A stretch of 64,000 bases of DNA from Amphiscolops sp. MND2022 (taxonomy: Eukaryota): positions 44,766,001 to 44,830,000 of the forward strand of contig OZ076409.1 in NCBI GenBank assembly GCA_964187785.1. The letters are read 5' to 3'. The translations under genes and the position numbers were made by a program. This document shows positions 18,296 through 38,718 of this stretch, in pieces; the first letter of the stretch is position 1; each line of letters starts with the position of its first letter. A model generated the notes under the pieces. The model made no database searches. It was given only the letters and a program-made list of their open reading frames with translations, and was not told where the DNA came from.

Positions 18296-18564
18296 CTATG
18301 AGTCATTTTCAACATTCTCAGCAGCCATGTTCTTAATCAGCTGGTAATATTTCACTAAGGCAGTTACGCAGTGCTGAACGTAGTCAATTCGAATCTCTGT
18401 ATCGTGACCCCTCTTATCGGACACTGTTTGACGTCTGAAGCCCCCTTTATAAGGTCCAGCAAGTTCTTGATTGGATAAAACAAATTGAATTCCATTTTCT
18501 ATACACTCCTTCAAATTGATTGGCTGCTCTTCAAATGACAGGCTACCCATTACTGCTATCAAGC
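18296..18564 (-). CDS. Exon 5 (last) of the barrel-domain gene
   Basis: Acceptor tttttcag|GC; GGFRR...EIRIDYVQHCVTAL; stop at 18296. Confidence 0.88.
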
Positions 18565-21500
18565 CTGAAAAACATCAACCGTGTTCTTAAAAATTGTCTA
18601 TTAGAAGTTTATTTTAATTCAAATACCAAAAACAGCAACGGATGAACAAAGTGCAGTGATTACAGCATTTAGTATGTACTGGGGTTGTATAGGTGTGAGA
18701 TGCAGATGTAAGACTGCCAATCACAAACTGAAAAACTGTCATAGTCTGAGAGTTGTTTAGTACTTAGCTGCAAATCGAGTGCTGACCTATTTATGTTTAT
18801 GTATAGATATACCATTGCACTTTGAGGATCGCATATGATACAGTTGAACAGAAGATCCATTCGCCACATCGTTTAACATTAGTTTTAGTTATCTTAATAA
18901 TAGGGTTCGATCATCAACTATCATTTTTGGGTCTTAAGCAGGTTCTTCATCATTGGTGTAGTGGTATGGTCTTGACAAAAAATAACGCAATTGGCGTAAA
19001 AAACAAAAATGTTCGATCTCTTGGTAGCAAATATGGTACTGTTGGTTGCTACGGGGAGATAGTGTCCGGTTTTAGAAAAGCTGAGCTGCTTATTCGACCT
19101 CCAAGTTGCAGAAGTGGGAAAGTGATTTTTTTCTTTCTTCTGAACTATCAAACAGTTTTCGCTATTAGTTCAAAGTTTTGGATATTTTCGTCAGTTTGAG
19201 CTTCCACCGTGTTCAAAAACAAAATACTTAGCAACTCGGAATTATTGGCAAATACCCCGATGCAAAGCGTGCATCAGGTTTGTGGAAGCGATGATAATTG
19301 CCCGGCCATAGGTCACAGTGTAAATTCTGTTTGCATCCTTCAATAATTGTACTTTGAGGACCGCATATGATACAGTTGAATAAAAGATTCATTCACCACA
19401 TCGTTGAACCTTAATTTTAGTGATCCTAACATTTACACTTCCTTTTTTCAGTGTACAAAACTTTTTCACTATTGAAATCAACTACAAACAACCACCACAA
19501 ATATAATATCTAAAGTTATACTAAACAACCATAAGTATCATATCAAAGTTACACTAAACGGAGAACATCAATCCAGTGAAAGAAAGATACCAGAATGTAA
19601 ACAAAAACGAAATCAAATTCCAGGAGAAAATATGGGTGGACGTGGAACACAACGGTAGAAAAGTCAAACTCCCTTTATTAGTCACAAAACGGAACGATAA
19701 AACACCCCTCGGAGTATATTGACTAAAACAACGCCAATTACTAACAACAAGGTCTTATTGGGAAAAAACCGACCAATCAAAAACAATCTACACAAAATAC
19801 AAAAGACTATTTGAGACCAACCACACCATAAACAACACCGAAGTGAAGACACAAAAAATCCGGAAGCTATCCGATACAACAAAAAGAACGACTAATACCT
19901 TACCACCAATAAGACGACGTGAAAAATAAACTAGACCGACTTACTAAATCCGGACATCTAGAAAGACTAAAAACGATCGAAGAAGACTGTTTCGTATCCG
20001 TACTAATTACGGTTAAAAAAGACAAATCAGTCAATGCGCGGAAATTAAAAGAGAGTTGCATCAAAAAGAGGCCACACATGCCGCATATGGACGGATTATT
20101 AAACCAAATTTCTGCCAAATTGTCAAAAAACAACCTACACATGATTTGGATGTCAGTGATAGATCTGGACTACGCTTACGGTCAAATGAAAATAAGTCAA
20201 CGGACATTACCGCCAGTATGGCTGGACGACATAATAGACATAACACACGGATCAAAGGAACAACACACCCAAAAATTATAGTCAGACCTAACAAAATGAG
20301 AAAATGAAGGCTTTAGAGCCAGCGAAGGAAATCAAAGTTTTACCAGAAAGAAACTGTATGGCTGGGACATACGATCTCACAACACGGCATAAGACCGAAT
20401 ATAAAGAAGACAGAAGCAATCAACAACCTAAATCTAACAGGAAACACGAAAATCATAAAATCCTTTCTCGGAGAAATGCAATACTTTGCAAAACTCATCC
20501 CAAATTCATCCGAAAAGACGGAAAACATGAGACAACTATTGAAGAAAGAAATAAAATGGGAATCGATGAAAGAACTCAACAAGGAGTTCAACAATTCAAA
20601 GAATGAACTTACCACACATCCGTGTCTAGCACACTACAACGGCAATAAAGGAAATATAGCCACAAGGGATGCTAGCAAAACCGGCCTTGGAATAGCACTA
20701 TGGCAAAAACAAACCAACGGCGACTTGAAACCCATTGCTTTGGCCAGCTGATTTTTAAGAGACGTTGAAACGAAGTGCTCCATCAGCAAACGGAATTACT
20801 GGCCGTAATCTGGGGCCTTAAACGCTTTAAATTCCATTTATACGGAAAACAATGTCAGTTATTTTTAACCACCAGGCATTGGACCCAATATTGAAGAAAA
20901 ATAAAAGAAGTAAACAAAATAGTGCCCGTCTAACACAATGGCTGGACATACTGAACCATTTCAACGTAACCCTAAAAGATACCGCTGGGAAAAAATCAAA
21001 TTCATCAGTTTTATTTGCCGTAATCCAACAGAAAACGCGTAACCGGAAGACAATTACAGAAAAGAATTTGCCATCAACGCCATCGCGCAACTTGTGACGG
21101 TAGGTAGCTGCATTGGACGGGTTTTCAGCCCATCAGAAACCACGGAAACAGAAAAGACGGCTGACATGCTTGATACGCTCGCGCAAACTGTACGCGCTGC
21201 CGCAAAATAAACAAGAGCAACTCTCACACAACCTTGACCACTAATCAGACTGCCGTTAATACATAACGCACCACTCATTTGCAAGCATTCATGAATGACG
21301 ATAACAACAACAACAACCGACAAAATCTGGACAAAATCAGCTGTAACCCTGAGAGATTCACTCGTGAATCCACGTTAAGATACCACTGGGGCGCTGACGA
21401 TGAAATCATGACTATCATCAACAAACGGAACAATTCACCAGAGACCAGAAAACTCGTAGAAAGGAGAATTGAGCTCACTGGATCCGGACATATGCGTTAT

Positions 21501-24500
21501 CAAGGTCACAAAATGCTGGACAGAAAAATTCTACTCCCCAGAAAAATCAAATCTAGGCGGCGGATTTTTCAAAGATTTCGGAGGCGAATTCCCATCACGG
21601 GCCATTCCTACCATTGAAACCAATTCGTACACCATTACTACAAAACTTGCCACGGATACCTTATCGACGGCTTCATCATCCGAAGAACCGGTCACAACAC
21701 AGGAACCGGGGGCTCATCCAGTTATTTTTGTACAAGGATACCGCGACGGTCCTATCGAAGAAATTGCCGTTCACTATGTTCGAATAAATCGCATCATTGA
21801 GAATGAAGCAGTGCAAAACCGACAACAAGAAGAAAATGTCCGATCAGCCGAGGTAGATTTCATGCTCGGCCTTGAAATTCTCAAAAGAAACGGCGGCAGA
21901 CCCAGATCTTATTGAAGTACAGTGCTGCCTGGAGGACAACAACAACAAACTGCAGCAAAAACCTGAAGACTACAAACATGTAGCCAAAGACCTGACCCAC
22001 CTCTGGGGCATCACGCTGGTCGATGTCAGAATCATCATACCAAAAAACCTACGCTACGCGGCATTGAACGCTTTACATTTCGGTCATCCCGGAATAAACA
22101 AGATGTGCAGTGACGAAACGATCTTCTGGTGACCGTATATGCGGGCAGATATCGAGAAGAAAGCAAAAACTTGCTCCGCCTGCATAAATCCCGGTAATAA
22201 TTTGAAAACACAAATTCCAAGCACCAAAAAAGTAAAAATCGAACCCCCAAAAAACCCTGAAGAAATCCAAATTAGTTTCACGAGAAACGTAAATAGTAAA
22301 CACTTAATTTCATCTCCTTTTATCTTAAATGCTGTAGATAAAAACAATCGTTGTCCGGGGGCAAAAGTTTGCAAAATACCAATCACGCGAGGGCCATAAC
22401 ATTCGTACAGGATTACATCAACGTCTACGTTGTACCGAAAGTAATTAAGTCCAAAAAAGGTAGTGCTTTTATCCCAAAAGAATACAAACGATGTTGCAAC
22501 GAATACAAAATAATCCGCAACACTTTTTGTGGGTTATTTACTGAATACTGAAAGCAGCGCGGACTGGCTGAAGCGCAAAGAGCAACCAAGGAACGAAAAA
22601 GGGCAATTCAACAGTCCCGATAGATCAGCAGGAAAACCAAAGACCTGGATTTAAGCATGGTTTCGGAAGACGAGTACTTCCAGTGCTACAACACCACAGA
22701 AAGAAAACCGATCCATACAAATATAGATAACGAACTACAGCTTCAGCCCAAAAAGACGACACTAACGCCGGAGACAGGTATGAAAATAGAAAAAGAACAA
22801 CACTATTGAACCACACCAAGTGTTGAGAAGATCGCAAAGATTACCTTTTGCAAAACAAACCAAAAAATTTGGCAATATACCATACTATACTGAAAATAAT
22901 AAGAAAGAAAATGAGTAGCATATGTGTTTTACAGAAAAACCAGAACAGCCAACCGAAACGAACAACAATGAAGAAAAAACACACCGTATACGTGAAATAC
23001 TGAAGGAGAAGTACACAAACCGTGAAATACGGAACTACTACTCAAAACAGCGGTACACAAACGAATTCATCCGGTGGGGAAATGTGAGATGCAGAGGTCA
23101 AACTGCCAATCACAAACCGAGAAACTGTCATAGTCTGAAAGTTGTTTAGTACTTAGCTGCAAACAAACTCTAATTAACTTCCTTGAGTGCTGACCTATTT
23201 ATGTTTATGTATAGATATACCATTGCACTTTGAGGATCGCATATGATACAGTTGAACAGAAGATCCATACGCCACATCGTTTAACATTAGTTTTAGTGAT
23301 TTTAATAATAGGGTTCGATCATCAACTATCATTTTTGGGTCTTAAGCAAGTTCTTCATCATTGGTGTAGTGGTATGGTCTTGACAAAAAATAACGCAATT
23401 GGCGTAAAAAACAAAAATGTTCGATCTCTTGGTAGCAAATATGGTACTGTTGGTTGCTACGGGGAGATAGTGTCCGGTTTTAGAAAAGCTGAGCTGCTTA
23501 TTCGACCTCCAACTTTCGGAATTGGGAAATTGATTTTTTTTCTCTCTTCTGAACTATCAAATGGTTTTCGCTATTAGTTCAAAGTTTCAGATATTTTCGT
23601 CGGTTTGAGCTTCCACCGTGTTCAAAAACAAAGTACTTAGCAGCTCAGAATCATTAGCAAATACCCCGATGCAAAGAGTGCATCAGGTTTATGGAAGCGA
23701 TGATAATTGACCGGACAAAGGTCACACTGTAAATTCTTTTTGCGTCCCTCAATAATTTTCAAAAAAAGCGTCGGCATTTTTATATGCATCTTCCCATCGG
23801 CGCTCTCAGATCGAAACTGCGAGTGTGAACACCTCAACAATGATTTACGAATCATCATCTGTATCGTGATCTTAATAAATACGATTGCAACACAATGAAT
23901 GATTTAACTCAATCTATGTTCTTTGCCCTGAATTCTTTAAAACGTTAGACAACTGAAGAAAGCTATTCTCGTCGATGCATTGTGGATACACTCTTTAGCG
24001 ACATATTTTTGAAAAAAAATTCTCATCATTTTGCAACGTGTGAGAAATAACCTTCAAGGCGGGTGCACGCAGGGGCCAGTCCACCACGGGAGTCAAAAGA
24101 CCATTGGATTTTGGGCTTGTTGGTCGAGTGAATCTGCTCCATTATTAAATGTGTTGCCACCTACAAAAGAAAAATTCGGCAAGTTGGAACACTGTGACGG
24201 ATTAAATACCTCTGCAAAACGTTGGTAGGAAAAGTGCATAGGTCGTATATCAAGGGGACCTTTCTCCACTTGAAAATTACAGACCGCAGCAAAGAAAACA
24301 AAACACAACACCTTTTCACAGAGTTCGGGAAATGATTTCGCCAAAAGTTCTGATGATAACCAAAACGAAAAAGGAGACATTGTTCACTGATTTGTAAGCC
24401 AACACTGAAATCGAAACCTACTCTGTTGGCATAATGTCATCGGCTGTCAATGTTTCTAAACCTTGGTAAATGGGGTCGCGGTTTCGATGAGGCGATTTTC

Positions 24501-27500
24501 TGCCTTTTTATACCGTCTTAGCCTGAATCGTATTGACCTTTCGTCCTCAATCATTTCTACCTGACGTAATTTTTCAATAACACTGATTACAAACATTGTG
24601 CAATGTAGTACTTATCAACAATAATGTGTATTATGTGTTCCGAACTTCTGTTCTAACGGTCTGTAGACGCTTATTTAACAGGAACGCTTTGCGTTACTCT
24701 GTACCCTGCTGACAGGATCGTATTATAATTATTACTTCGGCAAAAAAGGTCGCTTTACCATATTTTTTGTTGAATTGAGCTGCGACCTTGGAAGCAAGCT
24801 GAAAAGAGTTGTCGAAGTGTCACTGATCAAAACCCTATGCTGTGCTAGAACGCGAAGGCGCTATCTATCATCGCATTGATCCAGCCTACCGGCCAGACTG
24901 AACTCCATCATCAAAGAAGTTGAAATGTCATAAGAAACGGGAATAATTCCAGCGAAAACAGATTTAGCGTAGTACACTGCTTTTGTTTTTAATAACAAAG
25001 GTATAATTCAGTGTTTTTTTATTGCGTAGTAAATTTTCCAAAATGTCAAGTTTTGATTTGAACGATAATCAAAATTCTTTTATAATTCGTTACCTGGCAA
25101 TGTTACTTATGGTTCCTTTTTTGATTTTACAAACGGGAAGGCGAATTGTAAACAATGTAATGCCAGCTTTATAATACAATGCCCAAACAACAGGAACGAG
25201 CAGTCTTTAATCCTGAGGGCTAACCTACGCGATGAGGTGGTAGACGACCTTCTTTTCATAAGATACAATCACAAAAAAAATTGGAGACATTTTAACTTTC
25301 ACACTTATTGATGTTGAAAGTACATAAGTATGTTTTCAAGAAATTGATGATTGATCGAGACATTCTCTCCCCCCAAGAAATGCCCGTAGGGGCCCATCTG
25401 TTGCCCGTACGTTTATGCCCGTTGCCCGTAGATGATGCCCGTGCCTGTTACGGGCATAACCCCAGTAAATACCAGGGATGTTCAAAGATTAATTACAATT
25501 AATTTTTTCTAAAATATTTTTTCAATAGATTAATCGAAATCTGTTAATTTTTCGATTGATTAATCTGGATTGATTGGGATTATTTGGCCTAGTTCGGGAA
25601 ATGGGAAATAAAATCATTTTTCCAACACCAAAATTACTTTCCTGTACAAACAATACTTTTCACGGTATTCATATCCCACAGTGACTTGGTAAAATTCAGA
25701 AATAACTGAAGCTCCAAATTTGCTGGCAGCAAACGGACACCCAAAATGACAAAATGAACACACACCATACAAAATCTGAAAGCAAAGCTTAAGGCGTCCT
25801 GATTTCTGATTGGCTGATAGAATTGGAATGATGCCTTACAGAGGTAGTCTAAGAATCGCAACTAATCGCATTTTTTCGATAAATTAATCGTTCTTTAAAA
25901 TTTATTCGATTGATTAATCTTTTGCGATTAATCGCGATTAACCAATTGCCCGAATAACCATTGAACACCCCTGAATTTAATCATCAACGATAATGTTCTG
26001 TACATTTTTCTGTGTCGAACTTCTGTTGTAACAGTTTGTAGACATTTATGTGACCTAAACGCTTTGTGTTAATTTGACTCCTAGAAATCAAGCTGCCAAG
26101 TTGGTTGTCCAGTAGTCTTTAATGAAGAGATAATAGCAACGTTCTGAATGAAAATGTCTCAAACTGACACCGAAAATGACAAAAGTCCCAAAAATTTCCA
26201 ATTTTCGAAGATTTTCAGTATTTTTTCCCACATTTTCGACAGACGTCGTCAATTGGAACGTTGAAAAGGGTCGAAATGGAGAGAATGTGTTGTCCAGTAT
26301 GCTTAGAAAAGAGATAAATGCGGATTTTTATACGAAAACTGTCCGGAATTGTCTCATTGAAAAAAAAAACAAAATTTCAGAAATTCTCCGATTTTCACTA
26401 TTTTTGTTCATTTTTTGTTGAAATATCGATGAACTTCGTGGACTACAGAGTTAAAACGCCTAAAGCATGGGGTACCTTGTTGCTTCGGTGAGCTTTCGTT
26501 ACGAGATAAGTCAAATTTGTGAAAGGAAAATGCCTCAAATTGACCTGAATTGTCAAAAAGCATGAAGTTTTTGTCATTTTTGATGCAATTTCTGTACATT
26601 TTCCGAAAGATTTTGTTCCAACACAACCAACTCATTAACAAAAGAACGCGCTATACTTTACATGTTTGAAGAGATCATTGCATTCTTTCAAAAACACTTC
26701 AGAATGACTCCAAAGGAGTCGAAATTTTCTTTTCGTTTTCGTACAACTTGTGTACTTTTTGAATCGTTTTAGAATCAGAATGCTGGCAAACGTTCAACAA
26801 AGACCGAACGGATAGGATAATCCATTAGGCTTTTAAAGGAATATTTGTAGAATTCTGTTAGAAAACTGATGAAAATTGACCGCAAAAAGTTGAAATTTTT
26901 GTCGATTTCTGACACGTTCAATTATTTTTTTTCTGAGATTGGAAAATTCCGGTGAAATAAAAGCTTCGAAAAACTCCAGATAACGAATTTAGGTCCGAAG
27001 CTCGTTTTTAGGAAAAATGTCTAATTTATGGTCGAAAACTTCATCAGAATGACCCAAATATTAGAAAAACCGGGAAAATGTTTTTTACGTTTACGTTTTT
27101 AGACATTTTTTGTTCAATTTTTAAGCTACTTCCTTGTATCAAATGCTTTGAAAAACGATAACTGCATTTTTTGTTGGAATTGGCCTCAAAAACACCCAAA
27201 ATCCTTGAAACAACAACAAAGGACGTTGTTTCACAAACTAATCTCAATTTTTGTTCAACCCCGAACGTTTTTGAAGAATGGAACCTCCAATGACCTGAGC
27301 GTTTAAACAATAAGGTTTTCAAAACGCAATTGGGGAAAAAGTGGGATGAAGTGCATCAAGTTTACAACAAAAGTGTCAAAATTTCCGAACTTTCTTTGTT
27401 TTCAATAACAGTCCGAATTTTGGACCCTTTCCTAAAATGTAATTCAATCAAAAATCCCAGAGGCTCAGGATTGAAACGTGTAGCTACCGGTAGTGTTTCA

Positions 27501-29505
27501 AAAAGATATTAGACAAGTTTATTTGCCCAACTTTCAAAAACTTCACTAGAAAACGTAAATCTTGACATTCTTTGTCCAATATTCGATCGTCAAAAACCTC
27601 CGAGCAAAATCACTAGATATGGAATACACCTTCCAAATGTTTCGAGCTATTTCGTGGGCTGGAAAGGTGTAAACATTCAACAACAGCTACACTCGGTTGA
27701 AATTTTTCAGTTTTGATTGAAAATTTTTTTTCTCGGTGAGCCGCATAGTGCCGAAAAAAAAAACGAAAAGAGGCCAGCAATCGCAGAATTATTAATTTGG
27801 GGGTTTCCTTTGAAATGGGCTAAAATGAGTCAAAGCTTTCTGTTCTCCGAACTTCTCTGCGTTTTTACAGTGCATTGGCTATTCTTGAGCCTTAAATTTA
27901 TGTAGTTGTAGAACAGTTTGGGGCGGAAAATATCTCGCTTCTCAGCGGGCGTCTTGCTTTTAAGTTTCTAAATACGACTCACAAAGTTTTAAGTTTCAAA
28001 TTATTCAATAAACGGGAGAAGACATCTGGTTTCAGAAACAACCGCTTCAAAAATTTCAAACCTCAAAGCAAAGTACCCAAGTATAACTGATAGCGAAAAA
28101 AAACAACCTGGAAACTCGAATCAAAATGCTTTTGCATACAATTGCGTGATTTGCTCTGTTGACAATGGATGACTTTTCTGCTAGTCAAAAGACTACTGAC
28201 TTAAGAAGAGGGTTTTGGACTTTTTGGGGAAAACATTATCGCGAAAATCAGCTCCTCCTAAAAAATCTAACGGTCATTTTCGGATTGAGACCAATACCAA
28301 TTGGGAAAATCCTCATGAAAAATTTCAATATCGGTCTTTTTGCCACTCTTTGATCATCGGCTCCCCTCGAATAACTTTCAGATTACTCATTTTCCCAAAA
28401 ACCTTTGGTGGAGACCAGAAATATGGAGAACAATGCTTTTTAGGCAGAAAGAACTTTTTGGTATTTTGACGAAGAGAAAAATCTGGACAGTATGTAACAC
28501 TCCTTCAGAAATGGTCGTAAAATGTGATTTTATTTGAAATTCATTTTTCTACACGTTTTCTGAATCAAAAGTTTGCTTTCGACACATTTATGAACATCAG
28601 TTAGTTTTTTCAACATTAAGGACAAAAACTGTCTTCTGCTTATATAGCCACACAAAAACCGTTGCTTTGGCTATTTTGAGTTTATAAAGAAAAATCAAAT
28701 GGAAAAGTTCAATTCGTTTATTACTTTTTGAGCGTGACGAATGAGGAGACGTTTGTCACTCTGGAGTAAAACGGGAGCTTTCAAGATTTCTCGAGTCGAT
28801 ATCAGCGCCCAATGATCTGGGAGAACATCTGAAGTCTTCTGGTTCTGTCTCAAGTCCGCCAAAAACTTCAAGCCTTTCAGGGCAATTTCGAACCACTTTT
28901 GATTTTTTGTCTTCTGGTACAGTTTCATCAACCCAAGACTCGCTTCGCCGGGATAGTAAAGGGAGACGAAATCAGACATTCCACTAACTTTGTTATATTT
29001 TCCATTGAATTCACCTGTAGGCTTTTGCATGAACTCGATAAATCGTGCAACACTCTCTAAAACGAACCAAACTGATTCTTTATGTTGCAATAATTCCATG
29101 TAAAACACATCTTTTGCGAGTCTCAGTGTATAAATGACCAAGATAGTGGAATCGTCGTCAAAAATTGACAAAGGCTCGATTATCTTCTTTTTGTCGAAAA
29201 CTGACAAACGCTCGAACGTTTTCATCAGTGAAGTAAATAAAATATTAAACTATACACTGAAAAAAGAAGTCTATGAAATACTTGCTAATATTGCATGGTC
29301 TTGGTAGCCTTAGTATGATCAGAATATACTGTTAGGATCTTCGCAAGGGCATCTGGTGGATTGCCACGAAACACTGGGACATATCGCAGCGAATAAAAAC
29401 CCATTGTAAATTTGGATGCATTTCAACAAAGCATACCCTCTCAAGTCAGCTGGTCCGATTTTTCTCATTTTTGAATACCCGATACATTGCAAATATAACG
29501 TTGCC

Positions 29506-29540
<35 letters not shown>

Positions 29541-32500
29541 AATTTTTTTCATCTTTTTACGGAAGCATAGCAATTCAAAAATTTTCCGGTTCAGTGGAAT
29601 CATTCATGTATGTTTAATACGATCAACTCAGCTTAGAACTTTTATTCGTTACTTGATTGTCATACAAACCTAGTTCATTCGTGGAAATGAAAGTTGCGTT
29701 GACTTCTGAAGCTGCTACCAACGCCACCAGACCCAAACCAGCTCCACCAAGCTTAGCTTCTGCTTCCGTTCCGTCCACTTCCGGTTTTTTGGACCATAAA
29801 GGCTTGATATTGAGGTGGTTGCTATCCATGGTTTCAGCTTGCTCTTTCAACCATTTCCCTGTTTTTACGATAGTTTCATTCAACTTAGAACTGGGAAACT
29901 CCTCCGCGATGACTGCTAGCGAATAAATTGTTCCAGCGTGGCGCAACAAATTGTAGTCCGGTTTTATTCGAACTAAGGGTTGCATGTTCACCTAAGAAGA
30001 CCTAATTGTCAAACAAAATAAAATTAGCAAGGGGCATATTCTCGATTTTCAACAAAGATTTTTTCAACCAGTATTCATTACTTCGATCGGACAGAACTAT
30101 GTAATTGAATCACCAGTTTTCCGAGCGATTGAATACCTTCATATTTAGCCAATAGCTCGTCGCTGGTTCAAAAAGAGCACTTCCGAAAATGCTAGCAGAA
30201 AACGACTGAAAACGTTTTTTGTATGGCAATTGTTTCTCGCAAATTCATTTGGAGAGAAACTAATTTCGACAGTGTAAAAGAAAAAACATTAACACCCCAT
30301 TATACCGATACTAAATTCAACGGTAGATTTTTGAACACAGAGGGATCTGAGTGACTGATAAAGGTGATCATTTGATGCGTTAAGCGTATTCAATGCTGCA
30401 ACAGTAATCACAATTTTTCACTTCGAAAAAGTCGCACAGTGCCGAAAAGACCAAAGTGGAACCCTTTTAGTTTAAAAAGGCTATTTTATAACAAGGTATT
30501 AAAAATTTAGAAGAAAAGGGTCACAATGGCGAAAAAAACCCTCATATTTTTTCAAAGAGATGATTCAAATGATTTTGTTAAAATGTGAAAGGGAGACATG
30601 TCACCTCAACCCGGGTAAGCCAAAAAGGTATGAGAATTCAAGCTGATGATATCAAGCGCAAAAAATCTTCCGTATGATTTATATGGTTCAATATCAAGAT
30701 CACATTATGATCAGCCTGGTTCAGCAAACCAGGGAACGACTACAAGTCGAACAAGACGGGAACGTCTAAAGTCAGCGCTATACTTAAGGCTCAAAAAGCG
30801 CAAGTTTTTAAAAATATAATCAAGACTTTTTTCATGAAAAACTCAAAAAAGTGTCAAAACACCCAAAGGGTGGCTTTCGTTCTCGGAAAACACTTCAGAG
30901 GTTCGGATATAGCTTGATGGGTCACACGGGAGCGCTTTTTTGACTCTCGGCCTCCTCTTTAGTAGAACGCAATATACTTTGGATATAACATCATAATTCG
31001 GATATAGCGCAATATTTTCCAACCTCGAACTCCTCTTTAGTGCAACGCAACGTATGTCGGATATAACGTCAAAAATTCAGAAAGTATTGACAAACATTAT
31101 TGGTGGATATATTGGTGGAAAAACGAAAACTTGGTTTGAATATTTTCGAATTTTTTTCCAAAAATAGTTTCCGATAAGCCCCATAACGCCGAAAACCCCA
31201 ATGTCGAACCCCTGCTGTTGGGGCGGCTTTGAAGGACCTTCTGAACTAGATGGCTGAGTTTCACTACTGTTCTTATTCACAATTGCCATCATTAAGCCCT
31301 TCAGTTGACTAAATTCCTGATGTAACTCGCTAATCTTTCGTTCGTAACTCTTTTATTTCAGACAGCTGAGAAGAGATATCAGAACCGTCATTGGTGTCAG
31401 AATCATTAGAGTTCGTCTGTGCCATGTTCAAGTCTTCAGGAGGAGCTGTTTCTAAGGAGGAATCGATGATTTTACCGTTTCTGAGCACTGTCCCTTGATC
31501 CTGACTCATATAAATAAGTGAAAACAGTTTGTGAGTAAAGACTGGATTTCTGAGATGTTTCACGGATGTGTTTTGTTACTTTATTGCTGAACGTAATATC
31601 TCGAATTCACTAATTTTGAACTGAGATGATTTAGAGATGAAAAATACAAAGGAAATTGAGTATCTAATAATAAGCGTGAATCCGAAAGTCAAATTGAGGA
31701 AATTCATCCAAGTTTCATCGCAATGTAGATTCGTCGGAAGATTAATCAGAAAGTACAGTTATCGTTATTGGAGGTGAATTGTAGATGTATTTTCTGGTAA
31801 AATTTGACCTGAATTATCCAACTGGACGGTAGCTAGTCGCAATTTCGGTCTGAGTAATCTCTAATGGCGGCTTAAACTACAGCAGTTCACGTGTCTTTTT
31901 AGGCTGGTAAGAAGCTAAATCTTTTACCAGCCTTCTCTCATTGGTTACTGCCGGTTGGTGTTAATTGGTAAGTCACGTGACCGGTGTTGTGAATTGCCGC
32001 AGGGTGGCCACGCATCATGATGAATCTACATATTATGTAAATGGCAGTGAATCATCAGTTTACAATGTCGCAATTGCCTGCACATATGACAGTGGTTACC
32101 ATAGAGATGAAAATAAGCTGAAAGTATTCGATACCGCACTAATTTCAAGCCAAATCAAGATAAAGTACATTGCGCGATGGGAAAACGAGGTTTTCGAGCT
32201 GATTGTAGCACTAAAAATCAATATTTTGCAATTGAGGATGGATATGTGATGAGAACATGAGAATATTTGCTGATTTTTCAAGCCCAGTTTAGTTCAGGAT
32301 GAAAATGCGATGAAATGCAGTCTTTCTCGCTTGAAAATCAACAAGGTCTAAAATGACGACGATGAAGAGATGAAATTCCTTCATTATTTGCTAATTTCCA
32401 GCACAAATTAGATTGGCGATGAGTTTAGGATGAATTCACTCAATAAACAGCTAATTCTAACACAAATTAGTTCAACGATGAAATAGGGATGAATCTGCTT

Positions 32501-35500
32501 TATAAATCAGACAATTCTAGTACGATTCAAAATCAGGATGGGTCAGGGATGAATTTACTCAACAAAACAGATAATCCAGCACATTCACTCTTTTTAAGAT
32601 GAATTAGAGATGTACTTTCTCATTTCTTTGTCCACTGTCCATGCGATGAAATAGAAATGAGTTACCGTCTTTAAGAAATGAGAAGCACATTTGGAGTTAC
32701 TAAATGTAATACGGCGATGAATTTAAGATGAATTTACTAAAATCAAGTCCCATAAAATCCGCTGATAGATTAGTGATGAAAATAGTCTGAAGTCCCAATT
32801 CAAATTCACTCGCAATTTTGGGGATGAAATTGCGATGAGTTATGGTTAAATAGTATCAGTGAACCCGCTGATGGATTCGAGTAAAATACCATAATCAATT
32901 CGTAGGTTCACTGTCCAATCCGCTGATGGATCAGCAATGAATTTCAGAGAAGGGATTGTCAGGACTATGGCTCTGAGGCGAGGAGCATGTAGAAGTAACT
33001 TAGTTCATCACCTTCATATCTCTCGGTCCAGTCTGACCGTAAAACTTCTCTTGTCGTGACAAACCAATATGAAAATTTACAGCACATTAAGGCTATAAGC
33101 AAGATCATTTGTGCGGACACCGGAACTAGAGCGCTCAGTATTAAGTAAATATATATAACTTACACTCAAAGGGGGGAAAGGGAATTAGGTACAAGTAACG
33201 TAGGGTTGCTCACAACCATGACTCTTATTATATGACTTCATATTGCCCATGTCTGAGTACATAAGACATATTATTTACATTACAGATATTTAGTAATCTA
33301 TATTTCCATCATGCTGGCATGACACCCAAAGAGACCTCTACGCTCGCAAAACGTTTTGTTTCTAGTGAAAATGGAGGGGAGCTTCGATGAAAACAAATTA
33401 AAACAAAAAGTCGCATAGTATTGAAACAACGCCCATCTAAAAAAATCGGATATGTCGCAATACTTTCAAACATCCGCTTCCTTCATAGTGGAACACAATA
33501 TACTTCAGATATAACGTCAGAACCTCAGACACAGCGCAAAATATTTAAAATTCGCATCGACTATCCCTTTAATAAAACGCAACTTAATTCGTATATAACG
33601 TCAAAAGTTCGGATATAGCTTGCTGAGTTACTGAGAAAACCTAATTTTAAGACAAAAACTGATCATTTTGAAAAATCTCACGAAGCCGAAAAAAGTGAAT
33701 GGGGACACTTTAGGCTTTTCTAACATCCAATTTGTTGCAAAGTATCAAAAAATTGAAGGCAGGACCCTTTGGAGACAATAAAAAATTTTCGGAATGAAGT
33801 CTCTCAGAGCCAACAAATCCAAAAGGGGGACTCTATAGCCTTGCCCGGTATTGTATCGTACGTTGAAAATGAAAAAAAGGAGACCCTTTGCAATAATTTA
33901 GATGGTTTTGGTTTGCCGGTCCAGTAGTTTAGTAGTTCTGTAAGAAATGTCCACTACGCATACATTCAGTTATCTGACGAAAATTGAAAAAAAAATGCTA
34001 ATGTATAAGTCGCGCTCATTTTCTACTGAAATGTGTCGACTAAAAACACTGAACTACTGTCGAACAGTATAAAAGCCAAAGGATACTTTTCTATTCAAAA
34101 ATTCTTCAAGGCCATTTTTATAACTGTTTTATACTAATGCTGCTACTCCAGCAATGCATCGAATTTTCGCAAGAACTTTTCGTTACCTGTCAAGATCTCC
34201 TAACATAAAATCTCGACAGAAATCTAGGGGAAAATGTTCTGAACAAAAAAAACTTAAAACATTTGTCTGCTCCACGTTAAAACCAGCCGATGGGCCCGCA
34301 TTGGGCTATTTTCCTCCGTTCGTTTCTGCATTTAGGGCATTATCGGAAATCACGACGCCCTAATTTAGCAGAAATTGACCTAGGAGATATTCGTCAAGAA
34401 CCATTCAACTTAAAAGATTTTTACATAAGATAATTGAACTTAAAAGATTGATTTTCACCTTGATATCAGAATAATATACTTGGACATAGTCATGAAATTT
34501 CATTGATAAAACGAAATATTCAGCTTGATAAACAGGCGAAAATGTCTTTAAATATTTTTCAATCAAGGAAATCAATGACGGGAACAAACTAGGATATGAT
34601 TTTTCTTCACTAGGGAAGAGAGAGCTCTTTTTCGCTCCGTACGGTCAATCAAGAGAAGGTGAGTTGTGTCTTGAATTGTGTCTTGAATTGTGTTGTGTGA
34701 GCTTAAACGAAACTTTCTATACAAAGTAGAACGCTGAAAACTTGCAAAACTACATTCAAACTTCCCAAATCAATCAGATGAGAAATTAAAATTTCAAAAT
34801 TGACATTCAAGATTGCCAAATCGACATTCAATTTTAGCCATCCCTCCGCGGACCACTACTCACATATAGCTCGTAAACAGAATTGAGGAATTACGCCGCT
34901 ATACGAAGTAGCATTTTGGTTCTTTTTAGCTCTTCAGTAGCATGATAGCAGCGCATGATAATCTTGAATGTCTATTTTGTTAATTTTGAATTTCTAATTT
35001 TTGGAATCAGCCAAATGGAATCTAGATTGAGAAAGGATTGATTGAGGTGTCCAAAATAGTTCTACCAAAAGTTCTACTTCAATTTTGGAATCAATTTTGG
35101 CATCTAAGTCTTTTTTGGCCATCTACATATTATATTTTAGCTGTAAACGAGTCCCCTTAAACACGACCCATACCAGATTTAACGCAAATATAAAGAATTC
35201 CGAATGTTACAAAAGGGCCCCCTTAGATTTTTTTGGCGCAAACCGGATTTAACGCAAACCGGATTTAAGGCAAACTTGATATAACGCAAACCGGATAAAC
35301 CGAATTCCGGATATAACGTATACCGGATATAACGTTTTTTTTAAAAAAAAACCGACGAAGTGACAGATGTTGCTTTTAGTTTTTTAAGACCCCCTTCAGG
35401 TTTTTTGATATTTTGTAACCGAATGGATGTTAAAAAATCCCAAAGGGTCCCCCTTTCAGTGTTCTTTGGGCATTGTGAGACTTTTTAAAAAATATTCAAT

Positions 35501-38261
35501 GTCTCCAAAGTGTCTCCCTTCCATGTTTTGATATTTTGCAACAGAATGGATGTTGAAATTTTTTGGAGCCTTGGATATAGCGTCGCCTTGGGTCGTTCCC
35601 GGCTTTGAGAGCTAACTTGTAGAGCCGACTAAAGCTAATTGAACTGTAGGTGTTTGGTTCATTATATAACGTACCATGGTTGAAAAACCTATTTCTTGGG
35701 TATTCCTGGTCGAAACTACCAGGAGGAAAAACTCGTCGAAAAGCAACTCATCGAAAATTCTCTAGCGGAAAACTCGTCGCAAGAACAGAAAATAATCTAA
35801 ACAAATACAGCGTTAACTTTGGGATCGTACTGTGTTATTAAGTTCTCACCTATCATTAAGCATTACACTGTAAATTATAAACGTGAAATATTTCAAGCAA
35901 TTATATAACTAAAAAAAGCTATATTATGCGTAAAACTGAACTTTTCAAGCATCAATTAAGGAAAATAAATCCATAATTAGCACTGGATAATCCCTGTTTG
36001 TAATCTGTAATTAATCGACGAGTTTGCACACTTTTATTCGACACGTTTGCACTGTATTATTCGACGAGTTAATTTTCGAGCAGTTTTCCGCCATTTAATT
36101 TCTACCCATTTCCAAGATAACGTTTTTTCAGTTGTGCTCTATGGATCGTCACTGATAGCAGACTTCTAGCCTTGCAACGCTTGTTAATCTCAAAGACTTT
36201 CATGTTATCAAAGGGTGGTTTTTTTCTCAATTGTCCAAAATGTTCTATAATTTATTCGGATATGTCATCCCTAGTTGAAATTGCTTGAAACTTTTACATG
36301 ATTTCATAGGCTACCAAGCACTTTTAGCATGATTTTGGGAGTTTCATAGACAATCATTAATGCAAAATAATTCTCTGATGCAATGCTATTTCTTCAAGTA
36401 TTTATTAGGATTTCTATACAATTTGGCGGGTTTTCAGAGCAACATCAAGAAAATCAAAGAACAAAGTCCCCGCAAAATTTTGCAGGTTTGCGTGGGCAAA
36501 ACCTCAAGTTTTGTAAGCACAGACGCTACAATATGTTGTAAGCAAATAGTCAACGCGTGGCAGTGTGGCAAACAAATTCGTATTACTGAATTTTTTTTCA
36601 GTGGGAAAAATTTTTTTTTGCATGAAAACTGTCGGAATGAGCTATATTTATCACTTTTCGGGTTTGCAAAAACGAAAACATTTCCAAATAAAAGTTCTAC
36701 ACGGCATTTTTAGGGAACTACTTTGAAACGGAATATCAAAATAAGGCTGTCTTGATTGGTTGAAATTTCAATTCTTTTTTGATACGTTTTCAGCGTCAAA
36801 AAATCTGACGGACTAACGGAAAGGACTTTTACAGCTTTTTGTGAGCATTTCTGTTGAAGTTTTTCGAATGAGATGAAAAATTTGGTGTTTTTCAGGAAAA
36901 AAAACTCAACAAAATTTTTCGAACTGAAAAATTCTAATCCAAAAATTTCAGTCAAATTTTGGCCAATGTGTATTTCATTTATCTTCAACTTTAGTCCTTA
37001 TTCCGGTAACACCATTTTAGTGGTGGAAAAACGCCTAAAATCCCTTCATTTCGGTAAAATAAGGCCTAAACTTTACTGATTCATCAATTTTAAATGTTAT
37101 TCCAGTGTTTAGACGTATCCTCAACTTTTTTAGTCGTTATTCCAGTGTTTGGATCTTTAATCTTTAATTTTAGTCCTTATTCCGGTAACATCATTTTAGT
37201 GGTGGAATAACACCTTAAATTACTTCATTTCGGTAAAATAAGGCCTCAATTTTACTGAATCCATAAATTTTAGTTGTTAATACAGTGCTTGGACGCATTT
37301 TAGTCGTTATTCCCGTGTTTTGACGTTTTTTCATTAATTTTAGTTATTTTTCAGAAAAATCTTTTTTTAAATATTCTCGTTTTTCAGATTTGCTTTGAAT
37401 TTCTTCAGTGTGCTGCAACTGTTCATTCAAGAATGGAATTTTCTCAACCCAAAAGAAGGTGAGCTTTTTTTAAAGAAAAATAAAAGGAATCGTATAACTC
37501 TCATCAATAAATCCTTTGATATCCAATATTGGGCATACTGTTAAGAGTTTCTGTCAGACTAAAATATTCTGGAGAGAATCTGTATTCCTTTTGAAAAGTA
37601 TTGTTTTCAACAATTTCAATAGGAATATTTTTGAATGATAGGATGTTTATCATCTTATTAACCCGGTATATTTACAAAATACAATTTAGTCATCAAAAGA
37701 TTTATTTTTAGGATGTCATTAGTCAATTTGAATGAATGGCAAGCGAAAAGTTTAAAAGCTTAGCGCCGTCATTTTAGTCAACTCAAGTAAACTTGCGTGT
37801 TGTAAACTACGTTAGCCAAAATTTCGCGATTTCAACGAGCAAATCCAATTCAACGTGTGATGTCTACAAATAAATATTTAGTTCTAGCATTTTTTCACCC
37901 TTTCTAGAAATACGACCTATCAAGAGCTCATTTGTCAATCACAAGCAAACCTTTTAATATGGCTTCAATTTCTATAAATTTAAATTCTCACCTTGTATAC
38001 AAATTGGCCATTCGGTTGAACTTGAGCCAACAAGTAATCTTGTGCCAAGATGATCCTTTCTTTCAGAGTCCCTGTGCCGAAATGCACTCGCATACTTCTA
38101 TGTTTCTCCTTTGGAATTTCTTCATTTTCCACGTTAATTCCCACGTCATTTGTCTCTTCATCTGGAGCTTTGATTAATTTGTAAACGAAACAAATACAGA
38201 GAAATAAGAAAAATAAACGAAAAAGTTTTGAGTTCGATCTGATCAAACGATGCAAATTCAT
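18296..38261 (-). CDS. Five-exon gene, 433 aa: signal-anchored protein with a bacterial-like (alpha/alpha)-barrel domain; exons 38261-37992, 29991-29670, 29056-28725, 24160-24052, 18564-18296
   Basis: All introns GT-AG with consistent phases (0,1,0,1); 1302 nt open frame; motifs in order GQFVY, YNLLRHAGTIYSL, AKLGGAGLGLVAL, SLYYPGEASLGL, PDHWALI, PACTRLEGL, GGFR, IRIDYVQH. Confidence 0.88.
18694..23307 (+). mobile_element. Degenerate Ty3/Gypsy LTR retrotransposon in intron 4
   Basis: LTRs start TGTGAGATGCAG at 18694 and 23083 (after PPT GGTGGGGAAA); ATAGG 5-bp TSD; RT (IDLDYAYGQMK), RNase H (DASKTGLGIALWQ), integrase (LHFGHPGINKM) remnants. Confidence 0.92.
18776..19348 (+). repeat. Direct duplicate of about 23184-23757 (3' LTR half plus downstream flank)
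   Basis: Near-identical sequence; ORFs 18822-19199 and 23230-23577 translate almost identically. Confidence 0.95.
24052..24160 (-). CDS. Exon 4 of the barrel-domain gene (absent from the ORF track)
   Basis: ttttcttttgtag|GTG...GAA G|GTTATT; encodes VATHLIMEQIHSTNKPKIQWSFDSRGGLAPACTRLE. Confidence 0.85.
25473..25973. mobile_element. hAT-like MITE
   Basis: CAGGGATGTTCAA / TTGAACACCCCTG inverted ends (12 of 13); clustered GATTAATC motifs near both ends; TSD not recognisable. Confidence 0.65.
28725..29056 (-). CDS. Exon 3 of the barrel-domain gene
   Basis: gttttag|AG acceptor, AAA|GTAATA donor; YYPGEA and DHW motifs. Confidence 0.88.
29511..29539. repeat. (CT)n microsatellite
   Basis: About 14 CT units in intron 2 of the barrel-domain gene. 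Confidence 0.97.
29670..29991 (-). CDS. Exon 2 of the barrel-domain gene
   Basis: ttcttag|GTG acceptor, G|GTTTGT donor; YNLLRHAG and KLGGAGL motifs. Confidence 0.88.
30750..34046 (-). mobile_element. HINE/Helentron copy interrupted by a solo LTR
   Basis: AACAAGACGGGAACGTCTAAAGTCAGCGC at 30750 and decayed palindrome ending GTCGACTAAAAA at 34046; family-typical GGGACCCTTT blocks at 33700-33900. Confidence 0.7.
31202..33324 (-). mobile_element. Large solo LTR (2123 bp) with 5-bp TSD, internal repeat array and 3' ORF
   Basis: TGTC...GACA ends flanked by CCCAA on both sides; MSQDQGTVLRNGK... frame (about 31509-31202) runs to the LTR end. Confidence 0.82.
35190..35606 (+). mobile_element. HINE-related fragment with a ~16-bp tandem repeat (CCGGATATAACGCAAA-like, 35235-35335)
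   Basis: Family blocks AAGGGTCCCCCTTT and decayed 3' end GAGCCTTGGATATAGCGTCG... Confidence 0.65.
36990..37330. repeat. Degenerate tandem repeat, two units of ~179 bp
   Basis: TTTAGTCCTTATTCCGGTAACA.CATTTTAGTGGTGGAA at 36990 and 37169. Confidence 0.85.
37992..38261 (-). CDS. Exon 1 of the barrel-domain gene (signal anchor and stem)
   Basis: ATG at 38261; basic N-terminus then LFRLFFLFLCICFVY; ends GQFVYK AAG|GTGAGA; start codon choice is inferred. Confidence 0.8.
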
Positions 38262-38718
38262 CTTCAGTTTATTGTACGTGTAGACGATGAATTGGTTCGG
38301 CAACGTAAAACAATGCGTACATACAACAAAGCTGTGAATAAAACATGAACTGTCACAAAATTTGATCACTTTTGACATTCGGAAAAAAAGTATTACGTAA
38401 CAACGCCACACGAAAACACGTGAAACACGTTTTTATTCGTACTTCAACAAACATTCATGTTATAAAAGCTGCCATGCAGCTCAAACTATTCGTAACTTTT
38501 GTTTTTGACTTCTAGAGTCGAATTCATAATCACACACCAGTCGGGTTTGTGAGTTAACACGGAATTATTACATTGACATTTTGAATTCTAATGCTACAAT
38601 TTCGTATTTGACTCACAACATGCCGGTTCTTTTTTGTTCTCGAGAATCCTTCTTATTTTTGGAAAAAAAGATCGAATGTGGATTCAATTCGAACTATAAC
38701 ACTTCATTTTCATCTCTA

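What the first reader, a model, noticed from the sequence alone, without database searches (positions are those of the whole stretch)
18296..38261. Intron-bearing gene for a bacterial-like helical-barrel enzyme: candidate horizontal acquisition
Seen: five exons spread over 20 kb of transposon debris join through GT-AG introns into an unbroken 433-aa ORF, including a 109-nt exon missing from the ORF track; the intact frame among decayed neighbours implies selection. From recall: the motif series YNxxRHAG / KLG / YYPGEA / DHW / TRLEG / RIDYVQH is what I associate with uncharacterised bacterial six-hairpin or terpenoid-cyclase-like proteins (some fused to AMMECR1-like domains), and I know no standard animal gene with it. 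Inference: a horizontally acquired or patchily retained enzyme that has since gained introns; R-H, E, H and D-x-x-x-H are candidate catalytic residues.
Basis: partly seen in the sequence, partly recalled or inferred. Interest (0 to 1): 0.8.

Follow-up and report, generated by a model that had tools for sequence, protein, structure and literature searches.

The report
Acoel worm's borrowed poly-aspartate-linked enzyme
This animal, likely an acoel worm, carries an intact five-exon gene, likely acquired from microbes, for an unnamed barrel-fold protein whose bacterial relatives repeatedly sit beside proteins with long aspartate runs, so it is predicted to be an enzyme that chemically alters such runs, likely by turning L-aspartate into D-aspartate.

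Summary
The gene is real. Five GT-AG exons give a 433-aa frame collinear with bacterial homologues and with a RefSeq protein of the acoel Symsagittifera roscoffensis (48% identity). Two intron positions are shared with relatives, and the gene is under purifying selection. The acoel orthologue folds as an N-terminal membrane anchor, a stem and an (alpha/alpha)6 barrel closest to cellobiose 2-epimerases, but without their motifs or the terpene-cyclase DxDD. No Pfam family covers it. In the hits seen, only acoel-like sequences and diatoms are eukaryotic. Horizontal origin is likely, but the tree cannot name a donor, and acoel+diatom monophyly is not rejected (p 0.4). New lead: 19 of 159 loci of bacterial-type homologues have a run of 15 or more Asp codons within about 3 kb (0 for Glu, Asn, Lys, His). 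Distant relatives sit with Ala-Asp-repeat surface proteins and are fused to peptide ligases. The host genome has its own poly-Asp frames. Best reading: a cofactor-free secretory enzyme that modifies Asp tracts, likely an L-to-D epimerase. Activity is untested, and most homologues have no such neighbour.

The parts
37992..38261 (-). Exon 1 (residues 1-90): start codon, basic tail, hydrophobic signal-anchor (about residues 13-30), stem, first barrel helix
   Evidence: same start region in XP_063716540.1 and L092; orthologue model: helix 7-37, low-confidence 37-66
29992..37991 (-). Intron 1, 8000 nt, phase 0; same position in L092 (72 nt there), and implied in S. roscoffensis by the read-through ORF P0310
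29670..29991 (-). Exon 2 (residues 91-197): YNxxRHAG motif (R107, H108 at 29943-29938) and KLGG motif
29057..29669 (-). Intron 2, 613 nt, phase 1; absent from P0001/L092, P0164 (S. roscoffensis genomic ORF) and P0165, so likely gained in this lineage
28725..29056 (-). Exon 3 (residues 198-308): YYPGE motif (E235) and DHW motif (D278, H279, W280 at 28817-28809)
24161..28724 (-). Intron 3, 4564 nt, phase 0; three relatives' genomic ORFs lose similarity at the same codon, with a GT donor there in L092
24052..24160 (-). Exon 4, 109 nt (residues 309-344): TRLE motif (R342, E344)
18565..24051 (-). Intron 4, 5487 nt, phase 1; holds a decayed retroelement (RT/RNase H at 20317-20748 +) between direct repeats 18694-19348 and 23083-23757; position not tested in relatives
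18296..18564 (-). Exon 5 (residues 345-433 and stop): RIDxVQH motif (R403, D405, Q408, H409 at 18391-18371)

Best explanation
This is an intact, single-copy, intron-bearing gene, likely of an acoel worm and likely acquired long ago from a microbe, whose product is predicted to be a membrane-anchored enzyme of the secretory pathway that would modify aspartate-rich tracts of secreted proteins, most likely by epimerising L-Asp to D-Asp along the chain. Shown: gene structure, orthologue, shared introns, purifying selection, conserved residues, and the genomic link of the bacterial family to poly-Asp and Ala-Asp-repeat proteins. Predicted: type II topology and (alpha/alpha)6 barrel. Inferred: the conserved Arg107, Arg342 and Arg403 hold substrate carboxylates, and an acid/base set among His108, Glu235, Asp278, His279, Glu344, Asp405 and His409 removes and returns the C-alpha proton. 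This needs no ATP or cofactor, as an exported stand-alone enzyme would require. My step odds: real gene 0.97; microbial origin (any donor) 0.8; Asp-tract substrate 0.65; epimerisation given that substrate about 0.5.
For: Context: a run of >=15 Asp codons lies 56-3003 bp from the gene in 11 of 80 GTDB loci (five phyla) and 8 of 79 metagenome loci; 0 of 159 for Glu, Asn, Lys, His or the reversed pattern. Only 31 of 301 whole Planctomycetota genomes and 3 of 301 Desulfobacterota-sample genomes hold such a run anywhere. The label needs 15 changes on the tree. Runs mix GAT and GAC and sit in unrelated proteins, among them TPS-domain, TadE-like, T2SS-K-like and inverse-autotransporter proteins. In Planctomycetota, 9 of 13 genomes with a strong hit versus 22 of 288 others have a run (p 2e-7, cut-off chosen after seeing the data); for any hit, 10 of 33 versus 21 of 268 (p 6e-4). 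Distant relatives keep all six motifs. The 4 of 29 plasmid-collection hits I opened all lie in clusters with 24-29% Asp Ala-Asp-rich surface proteins, three fused to Mur-ligase or ATP-grasp domains. Other fusions or cluster families: CapA (5 of 120 rows), alpha/beta-hydrolase and HTTM (2 loci each), Asp/Asn beta-hydroxylase, GT4, C5-epimerase C-terminus. CapA is homologous to the peptide epimerase MslH (PMC8179263, passage). Nearest solved folds are cofactor-free sugar epimerases (Z 30.6, rmsd 2.9, 332 aligned). 288 of 350 homologues have an N-terminal hydrophobic stretch (crude test, no control). The host genome has poly-Asp frames, one with a signal-peptide-like start.
Against: No activity data exist. 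140 of 159 loci have no Asp-15 run in the flank held; among loci with >=2.5 kb on both sides it is 5 of 57. Only 1 of 16 regions fetched around poly-Asp runs held a barrel gene, and 21 of 268 barrel-negative Planctomycetota genomes have runs. The pre-specified replicate in Desulfobacterota was underpowered, and its one non-seed strong hit (G512) has no run. The epimerase family's catalytic motifs are absent, so the fold does not carry the chemistry over. Drimenyl diphosphate synthase (Z 28.0) and GH76/GH105 (Z 27) are only 2.6-3.5 Z units lower. Fusion to CapA or alpha/beta-hydrolase could mean the partner is the epimerase and the barrel does something else. Asp-rich secreted proteins are common in animals (own knowledge), so their presence in the host is weak support. 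The donor is unresolved.
Confidence: 0.35

Rival explanations
1. The substrate is the Asp tract but the chemistry differs: alpha-to-beta (isoAsp) rearrangement through a succinimide, endoproteolytic cleavage (shedding), or cross-linking.
For: All the context evidence points to the substrate, not the reaction. Two conserved glutamates and His/Asp pairs also suit hydrolysis or acyl transfer. Alpha/alpha toroids that modify peptides are known (LanC, prenyltransferases, thioester domains; recalled).
Against: No conserved Cys or Ser nucleophile is evident among pocket-motif residues except Ser229. The best structural neighbours are epimerases.
Confidence: 0.25
2. It is a glycan enzyme of the Golgi (uronic-acid epimerase, lyase or glycosidase), and the poly-Asp neighbours only mark cell-surface gene islands.
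For: Top folds are AGE/cellobiose epimerases, GH76 and GH105. Weak GH127 scores (E 0.002-0.025). Atlas names two near clusters GH88 automatically. Type II topology is typical of Golgi glycan enzymes (own knowledge). GH114 neighbours occur in 2 loci.
Against: Few glycan genes recur beside the barrel, whereas Asp runs do and Glu, Asn, Lys and His runs never do. Fusion partners are mainly peptide ligases and peptide-modifying domains.
Confidence: 0.2
3. Origin rival, independent of function: not a direct bacterial transfer, but an old eukaryotic gene lost in most lineages, or a transfer from a diatom-like alga (food or symbiont).
For: Diatom homologues exist (Arcocellulus cluster). A tree with acoels and diatoms forced together is not rejected (delta lnL 9.2, p-AU 0.4). 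The acoel branch is long with no supported sister. Only the top 120-150 of about 1,450 hits were seen per search.
Against: Free trees place diatoms and acoels apart, without starred support. Of 10 hits naming an organism, 9 are prokaryotic and 1 is the acoel. Bacterial proteins outscore the diatom ones against the model (bits 193-214 for the top 11 full-length hits vs 167-170). Retention needs many losses.
Confidence: 0.3
4. A non-catalytic poly-anion binding or chaperone protein that escorts Asp-rich proteins during export.
For: Arg-rich conserved set; constant core of multidomain proteins whose other domains are enzymes.
Against: Near-invariant His, Glu, Asp and Tyr at six helix starts are typical of catalytic pockets. 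Most members stand alone.
Confidence: 0.1
5. A class II terpene cyclase.
For: Weak NCBIfam squalene/oxidosqualene cyclase hits in 5-6 of 20 members (best E 2.5e-6); QW-like motif in 307 of 372; Z 26-28 to cyclases.
Against: No conserved DxDD; the pattern occurs anywhere in only 51 of 372 and not in this protein. The conserved set is strongly polar and basic.
Confidence: 0.03

Closest known systems
AGE superfamily: cellobiose 2-epimerase (PDB 4z4j, 3wkf), N-acylglucosamine 2-epimerase (Pfam PF07221)
   Same: (alpha/alpha)6 barrel, best structural match (Z 30-31); conserved polar residues at the starts of six helices; cofactor-free chemistry proposed
   Different: 9-13% identity; no PF07221 hit; family motifs absent; profile comparison not significant; has a membrane anchor; proposed substrate is a protein, not a sugar
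AMMECR1-fused barrel proteins annotated 'poly(glycerol-phosphate) alpha-glucosyltransferase' or 'Mur ligase family protein' (WP_014930977.1, WP_280171477.1, WP_243267758.1)
   Same: All six motifs shared; profile E 1e-35 to 1e-44; encoded with Asp-rich surface proteins
   Different: The acoel protein lacks the extra N-terminal and ligase domains and has a signal-anchor; I found no functional study of the barrel in these proteins either
Peptide epimerases: radical SAM (PoyD), alpha/beta-hydrolase BotH, MslH/CapA (PMC10406935 and PMC8179263, passages)
   Same: Proposed reaction (post-translational L-to-D change); CapA and alpha/beta-hydrolase domains occur fused to the barrel
   Different: Different fold; proposed substrate is a homopolymeric tract of a large exported protein, not a short precursor peptide
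Polymer-level C5 epimerases (heparan sulfate GLCE, Pfam PF06662; alginate AlgG) and repeat-tailoring enzymes such as SdgA/B on Ser-Asp repeats (recalled, except the PF06662 lead)
   Same: Type II Golgi or periplasmic enzyme acting along an acidic polymer; gene beside its repeat-protein substrate; PF06662 seen in related Atlas clusters
   Different: No PF06662 hit in this protein or its orthologue; SdgA/B are glycosyltransferases of another fold
Horizontally acquired, intron-bearing enzyme genes in animals (e.g. 56 candidates in Xenoturbella bocki, PMC11521371, passage)
   Same: Microbial-type gene on a host chromosome, with spliceosomal introns and eukaryotic targeting
   Different: Family has no name or known activity; donor not identified

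Membership tests
AGE / cellobiose 2-epimerase family | (alpha/alpha)6 barrel fold | tested here: met
   Orthologue model vs 4z4j Z 30.6, rmsd 2.9, 332 aligned; bacterial homologue vs 3wkf Z 31.1, rmsd 3.2, 347 aligned
AGE / cellobiose 2-epimerase family | Match to PF07221 and the family's conserved motifs, which carry the two catalytic His (role recalled) | tested here: not met
   No PF07221 hit for exons, 22 homologues or the orthologue; motifs GHxxE 7, WWx[QH]xE 0, [YF]HxxR 9, QxRxxW 2 of 372; hhalign vs a 3-sequence AGE alignment probability 0.2% (shallow). No residue-level superposition was available.
Class II terpene cyclases | DxDD general-acid motif (recalled) | tested here: not met
   Absent from this protein, not among conserved columns, present anywhere in 51 of 372
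Class II terpene cyclases | QW-type structural motif | tested here: met
   QxxDGx[FWY] in 307 of 372; a fold-level feature only
Glycoside hydrolases GH76/88/105/127 | Score above the family's curated cut-off | tested here: inconclusive
   Orthologue GH127 17.8 bits vs cut-off 24.9; a phage homologue passes the GH127, GH88, PF06917 and PF06662 cut-offs at once on short stretches, which reflects the shared repeat
LanC-like proteins / prenyltransferase beta subunits | Zinc-ligand motifs CHG, WCxG, DxCY (recalled) | tested here: not met
   1, 0 and 1 of 372
Unnamed barrel superfamily that includes AMMECR1-, Mur-ligase- and ATP-grasp-fused proteins | Six motifs YNxLRH, KLGG, YYxGE, DHW, xE, RIDxVxH | tested here: met
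   Aligned; conservation
Known peptide epimerases (radical SAM, BotH, MslH) | Radical SAM, alpha/beta-hydrolase or metallophosphatase fold | tested here: not met
   The model is almost all helical (DSSP) and has no such Pfam match; this lowers membership, not the 'works like' claim
Known peptide epimerases (radical SAM, BotH, MslH) | L-to-D conversion of a residue in a ribosomal peptide | not testable with these tools
   Needs an assay
Type II Golgi enzymes | Short basic tail, one hydrophobic anchor, stem, lumenal catalytic domain | tested here: met
   Hydropathy peak 1.98 near residues 12-31; same layout in XP_063716540.1 and L092; predicted only
Type II Golgi enzymes | Golgi localisation | not testable with these tools
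   Needs tagging or immunolocalisation
Horizontally acquired gene | Integrated in the host genome, not contamination | tested here: met
   On contig C1 of 104 Mb among transposons; four spliceosomal introns, two shared with relatives
Horizontally acquired gene | Absent from other animals | tested here: inconclusive
Horizontally acquired gene | Nested with support inside a donor clade | tested here: inconclusive
   Acoel clade 100, attachment unresolved; AU p 0.4 for acoel+diatom
Horizontally acquired gene | Expressed and spliced | not testable with these tools
   No transcript data were obtained; selection and a RefSeq model in the relative are indirect

The most novel reading that the evidence does not exclude
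The gene is an animal member of an undescribed family of polymer-level protein epimerases (or other cofactor-free tailoring enzymes) for poly-Asp and Ala-Asp tracts. Bacteria across many phyla pair it with Asp-rich surface proteins; acoels took it from a microbe, gave it a Golgi anchor and introns, and use it to put D-Asp into their own secreted poly-Asp proteins, one of which may end in 669 consecutive Asp.
Probability: 0.3. Interest if true: 0.93.

Novelty: new variant of a known kind. Interest (0 to 1): 0.8.

Why it matters
It gives a substrate hypothesis, testable with one chiral amino-acid assay, for a family of over 1,400 unnamed proteins, and for barrel domains now misleadingly named after glucosyltransferase or Mur-ligase partners. 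If right, long Asp tracts in bacterial adhesins and in an animal's secreted proteins are enzymatically rewritten. That would add a new fold to peptide epimerases, change how such tracts are thought to bind calcium and resist proteases, and offer a tool for making D-Asp polymers. Independently, it is a well-supported case of a microbial-type gene domesticated in acoels (introns, anchor, selection). I found no mention of acoels in the main text of a 2026 compendium of animal gene transfers (its supplements could not be read).

Tried and rejected
RNA evidence: no RNA holder listed; this blank is no evidence either way. Pfam, NCBIfam and PDB sequence searches gave no family above cut-off for the exons or close homologues. 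Clustering of 653 neighbour ORFs and a Pfam scan of 84 of them showed no conserved operon; the poly-Asp link appeared only on a composition scan, prompted by the plasmid hits. Profile comparison with AGE was not significant. The careful 80-row tree did not finish; the quick tree is quoted. Rows dropped from trees: near-identical S. roscoffensis ORFs, P0314 and P0173, and intron read-through tails of P0001 and P0165; 80 and 43 of 488 rows were used and 56/59. The Desulfobacterota replicate was uninformative, and that search missed a barrel gene later found in G557, so absences there are unreliable. A plain Asp-codon pattern in the host genome returned GAT microsatellites. Contamination was rejected (104-Mb contig, shared introns). 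A pseudogene was rejected. The upstream in-frame ATG at 38378 was rejected as start because two orthologues begin at the 38261 equivalent. Complex prediction was not used. Literature searches found nothing on this family, the accessions or the poly-Asp link; the library lacks most subscription papers. Four look-ups of earlier scan findings returned nothing.
Full report
1. Observation. The five exons, four GT-AG introns and 433-aa frame are as described. Three independent lines support the model. The junctions lie in ungapped blocks against continuous homologous ORFs. A RefSeq protein of the acoel Symsagittifera roscoffensis (XP_063716540.1, 444 aa) aligns over the whole length at 47.6% and finds all five exons, and nothing else, in the 1.07-Gb genome (exon 3 alone also gives one hit). 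A metagenome contig (L092) carries an orthologue with a 72-nt intron at the intron 1 position, no intron 2, and a GT donor at the intron 3 position. Genomic ORFs P0164 and P0165 also run unbroken across intron 2 and lose similarity at intron 3. Against L092, synonymous sites are saturated (pS 0.81; 17 of 59 four-fold sites identical) while dN is 0.39 over 249 codons: long purifying selection. I did not identify the host species; 'acoel' is inferred from the orthologue and the tree. P0001 and P0165 are unnamed and are acoel-like by tree and intron only.

2. The protein. The S. roscoffensis orthologue was folded in place of the window's product (mean pLDDT 89.2): an N-terminal helix (7-37), a disordered stem (37-66) and a helical barrel. 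The window protein and L092 have the same basic tail and hydrophobic segment, which predicts a type II membrane protein with a lumenal domain. Against 48,161 PDB representatives the best matches are cellobiose 2-epimerases (Z 30.6, rmsd 2.9, 332 aligned), then glucose 2-epimerase (29.6), mannose isomerase (28.5), drimenyl diphosphate synthase (28.0) and GH105/GH76 (27). A bacterial homologue gives the same order. No Pfam or NCBIfam family names it. In 470 aligned sequences, near-duplicates included, Y103, N104, R107, H108, Y231, Y232, E235, D278, H279, W280, E344, R403, D405, Q408 and H409 are 95-100% conserved and R342 93%. The motifs of AGE epimerases, class II terpene cyclases, LanC and prenyltransferases (the last three recalled) are absent. 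It is a separate branch of the (alpha/alpha)6 barrels.

3. Distribution and origin. The family has at least 1,342-1,454 clusters. Two exact motifs find 299 stretches in 185,579 GTDB genomes; the best 80 are mostly Planctomycetota (29) and Thermodesulfobacteriota (15), with a dozen other phyla. With an acoel-clade profile, four acoel-like proteins score E 1e-134 to 5e-111 and the next hit 2e-57; of 10 rows naming an organism, 9 are prokaryotic. The only other eukaryote named is the diatom Arcocellulus. A phage and a giant-virus contig also carry homologues. All trees give the acoel-like clade 100 support on a long branch with no supported sister. Forcing acoels and diatoms together costs 9.2 log units and is not rejected (p-AU 0.4). 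Only 120 and 150 of about 1,450 hits were listed, mostly unnamed, so absence from other animals is not shown. Transfer from a microbe into an acoel ancestor is the most economical reading (about 0.8 for any microbial donor, 0.7 for a bacterium), but it is not proven.

4. What the bacterial context says. No operon is conserved. Distant relatives in the plasmid collection are annotated as Mur ligases or glucosyltransferases. All 4 of 29 records opened lie in clusters with Ala-Asp-rich surface proteins of 24-29% Asp: a Listeria LPXTG protein with 131 tandem Ala-Asp, and BapA-type proteins in Agrobacterium and Sulfitobacter. They keep the six motifs, and three are fused to Mur-ligase or ATP-grasp domains. 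This prompted a composition scan of the close homologues' flanks. 11 of 80 GTDB loci and 8 of 79 metagenome loci have a run of at least 15 Asp codons, up to 106, all within 56-3003 bp; none has such a run of Glu, Asn, Lys or His codons or of the reversed pattern. The runs mix GAT and GAC, lie in unrelated proteins, several with export or membrane features, span five phyla, and need 15 changes on the tree. As background, 31 of 301 whole Planctomycetota genomes and 2 of 300 non-seed genomes of the Desulfobacterota sample have such a run anywhere. Within Planctomycetota, genomes with a strong hit (E <= 1e-45, cut-off chosen afterwards) have a run in 9 of 13 cases against 22 of 288; with any hit, 10 of 33 against 21 of 268 (no phylogenetic or genome-size correction). 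One of the two non-seed Desulfobacterota-sample genomes with a run has an AMMECR1-barrel gene about 1.4 kb upstream of it. Against this: 140 of 159 loci have no run in the flank held; it is 5 of 57 where both flanks exceed 2.5 kb; only 1 of 16 regions fetched around runs held a barrel gene; and the pre-specified replicate had one informative genome, which was negative. The link is strong but partial.

5. Candidate substrates in the host. A mixed-codon Asp pattern gave 34 matches against 12 for its reversed control. The 9 loci translated (8 places) all lie in open frames of 99 codons or more. One ~410-aa frame starts with a signal-peptide-like stretch (judged by eye), then has Asp-Ala-Asp-Asp-Thr-Asp-Gly repeats and 25 Asp; another follows Cys-rich and Thr-rich frames and ends in 669 Asp codons. 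The latter is largely a 9-bp tandem array and may not be translated. Asp-rich secreted proteins are not peculiar to acoels (own knowledge), so this shows opportunity only.

6. Mechanism. Most members look exported (288 of 350 by a crude hydropathy test) and stand alone, so the reaction should need no ATP. Conserved arginines would bind carboxylates, and His/Glu/Asp residues would shuttle protons. The nearest folds epimerise a carbon next to a carbonyl. One fusion partner, CapA, is about 52% identical to the peptide epimerase MslH and is proposed to epimerise poly-gamma-glutamate (PMC8179263, passage); another, the alpha/beta-hydrolase fold, includes the epimerase BotH (PMC10406935, passage). 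I therefore commit to L-to-D epimerisation of Asp along the tract (0.35 for the whole chain). Other cofactor-free changes to Asp tracts (0.25), glycan chemistry (0.2), binding only (0.1) and terpene cyclisation (0.03) are the rivals. None of the chemistry is shown.

7. Literature. Searches: acoel gene transfer (listings and abstract starts only), the two RefSeq accessions (0 papers), the family and its context (and 112 with 0 papers), peptide epimerases. Passages seen: PMC13342648 (no acoel term in the main text; supplements unreadable, and they may list this gene), PMC7159879 (not relevant), PMC11521371 (56 HGT candidates in Xenoturbella), PMC8687577 (Lmo1799 has 226 Ala-Asp repeats), PMC12472024 (lmo1798 named only in a SNP list). 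That the Listeria genes in L175 are lmo1798 and lmo1799 is recalled, not shown by a call. I found no description of this family or of its link to Asp tracts in this library.

8. Verdict. Observation confirmed; interpretation partly supported and extended. A domesticated microbial-type gene is a known kind of thing. An unnamed barrel family tied to poly-Asp proteins, with a directly testable activity, is what makes it surprising. Interest 0.8.

Noticed in passing
L258:4921-7257 (G000:C2, about 80.646-80.649 Mb): Open frame with a Thr-rich stretch and then 669 consecutive Asp codons (448 GAT, 221 GAC), downstream of Cys-rich frames; largely a 9-bp tandem array, translation unknown.
   Followed up: partly
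L259:4170-5414 (G000:C7, about 35.85 Mb); L228; L253: Further host frames rich in Asp: one with a signal-peptide-like start and acidic heptad repeats, one 45% Asp over 489 aa, one with Asp runs before a hydrophobic end; no Pfam match for the two scanned, L259 and L228.
   Followed up: partly
P0408 and P0314 (S. roscoffensis): Two near-identical copies, both on a 78.9-Mb sequence; the 376-aa model lacks the last motif, through truncation or a missed exon.
   Followed up: no
L173:4365-6029 and L172:3626-4612: Family members in a giant-virus contig (next to a gene that looks like the major capsid protein, recalled, and Glu-rich ORFs) and in a phage contig among DNA-metabolism-like genes, also recognised from recall.
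   Followed up: partly
L209:7420-8154, L220:7309-8136, L210-L212: Planctomycetota proteins with 22-44 Asp runs, two with a PepSY domain, directly or one gene upstream of a response regulator, with no barrel gene nearby.
   Followed up: no
P0057, P0091, L048:7163-8389, L078: A second, divergent barrel subfamily that occurs fused in tandem to, or next to, the first.
   Followed up: partly
P0003, P0006, P0024: Diatom-cluster homologues have an N-terminal hydrophobic stretch and a C-terminal hydrophobic tail, a different anchoring from the acoel proteins.
   Followed up: no
window:5145-5558 (-): Cys-rich exon-like ORF that recalls PLAC8/cornifelin (from memory); no Pfam, PDB or phage match.
   Followed up: partly
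window:54271-55215 (-); 2111-2590 (-); 60637-60936 (+); 41121-41477 (+): Broken Tc1-type transposase, DUF1759 retroelement pieces and an RT/RNase H piece.
   Followed up: no
window:38378 (-): In-frame ATG 39 codons upstream of the likely start.
   Followed up: partly
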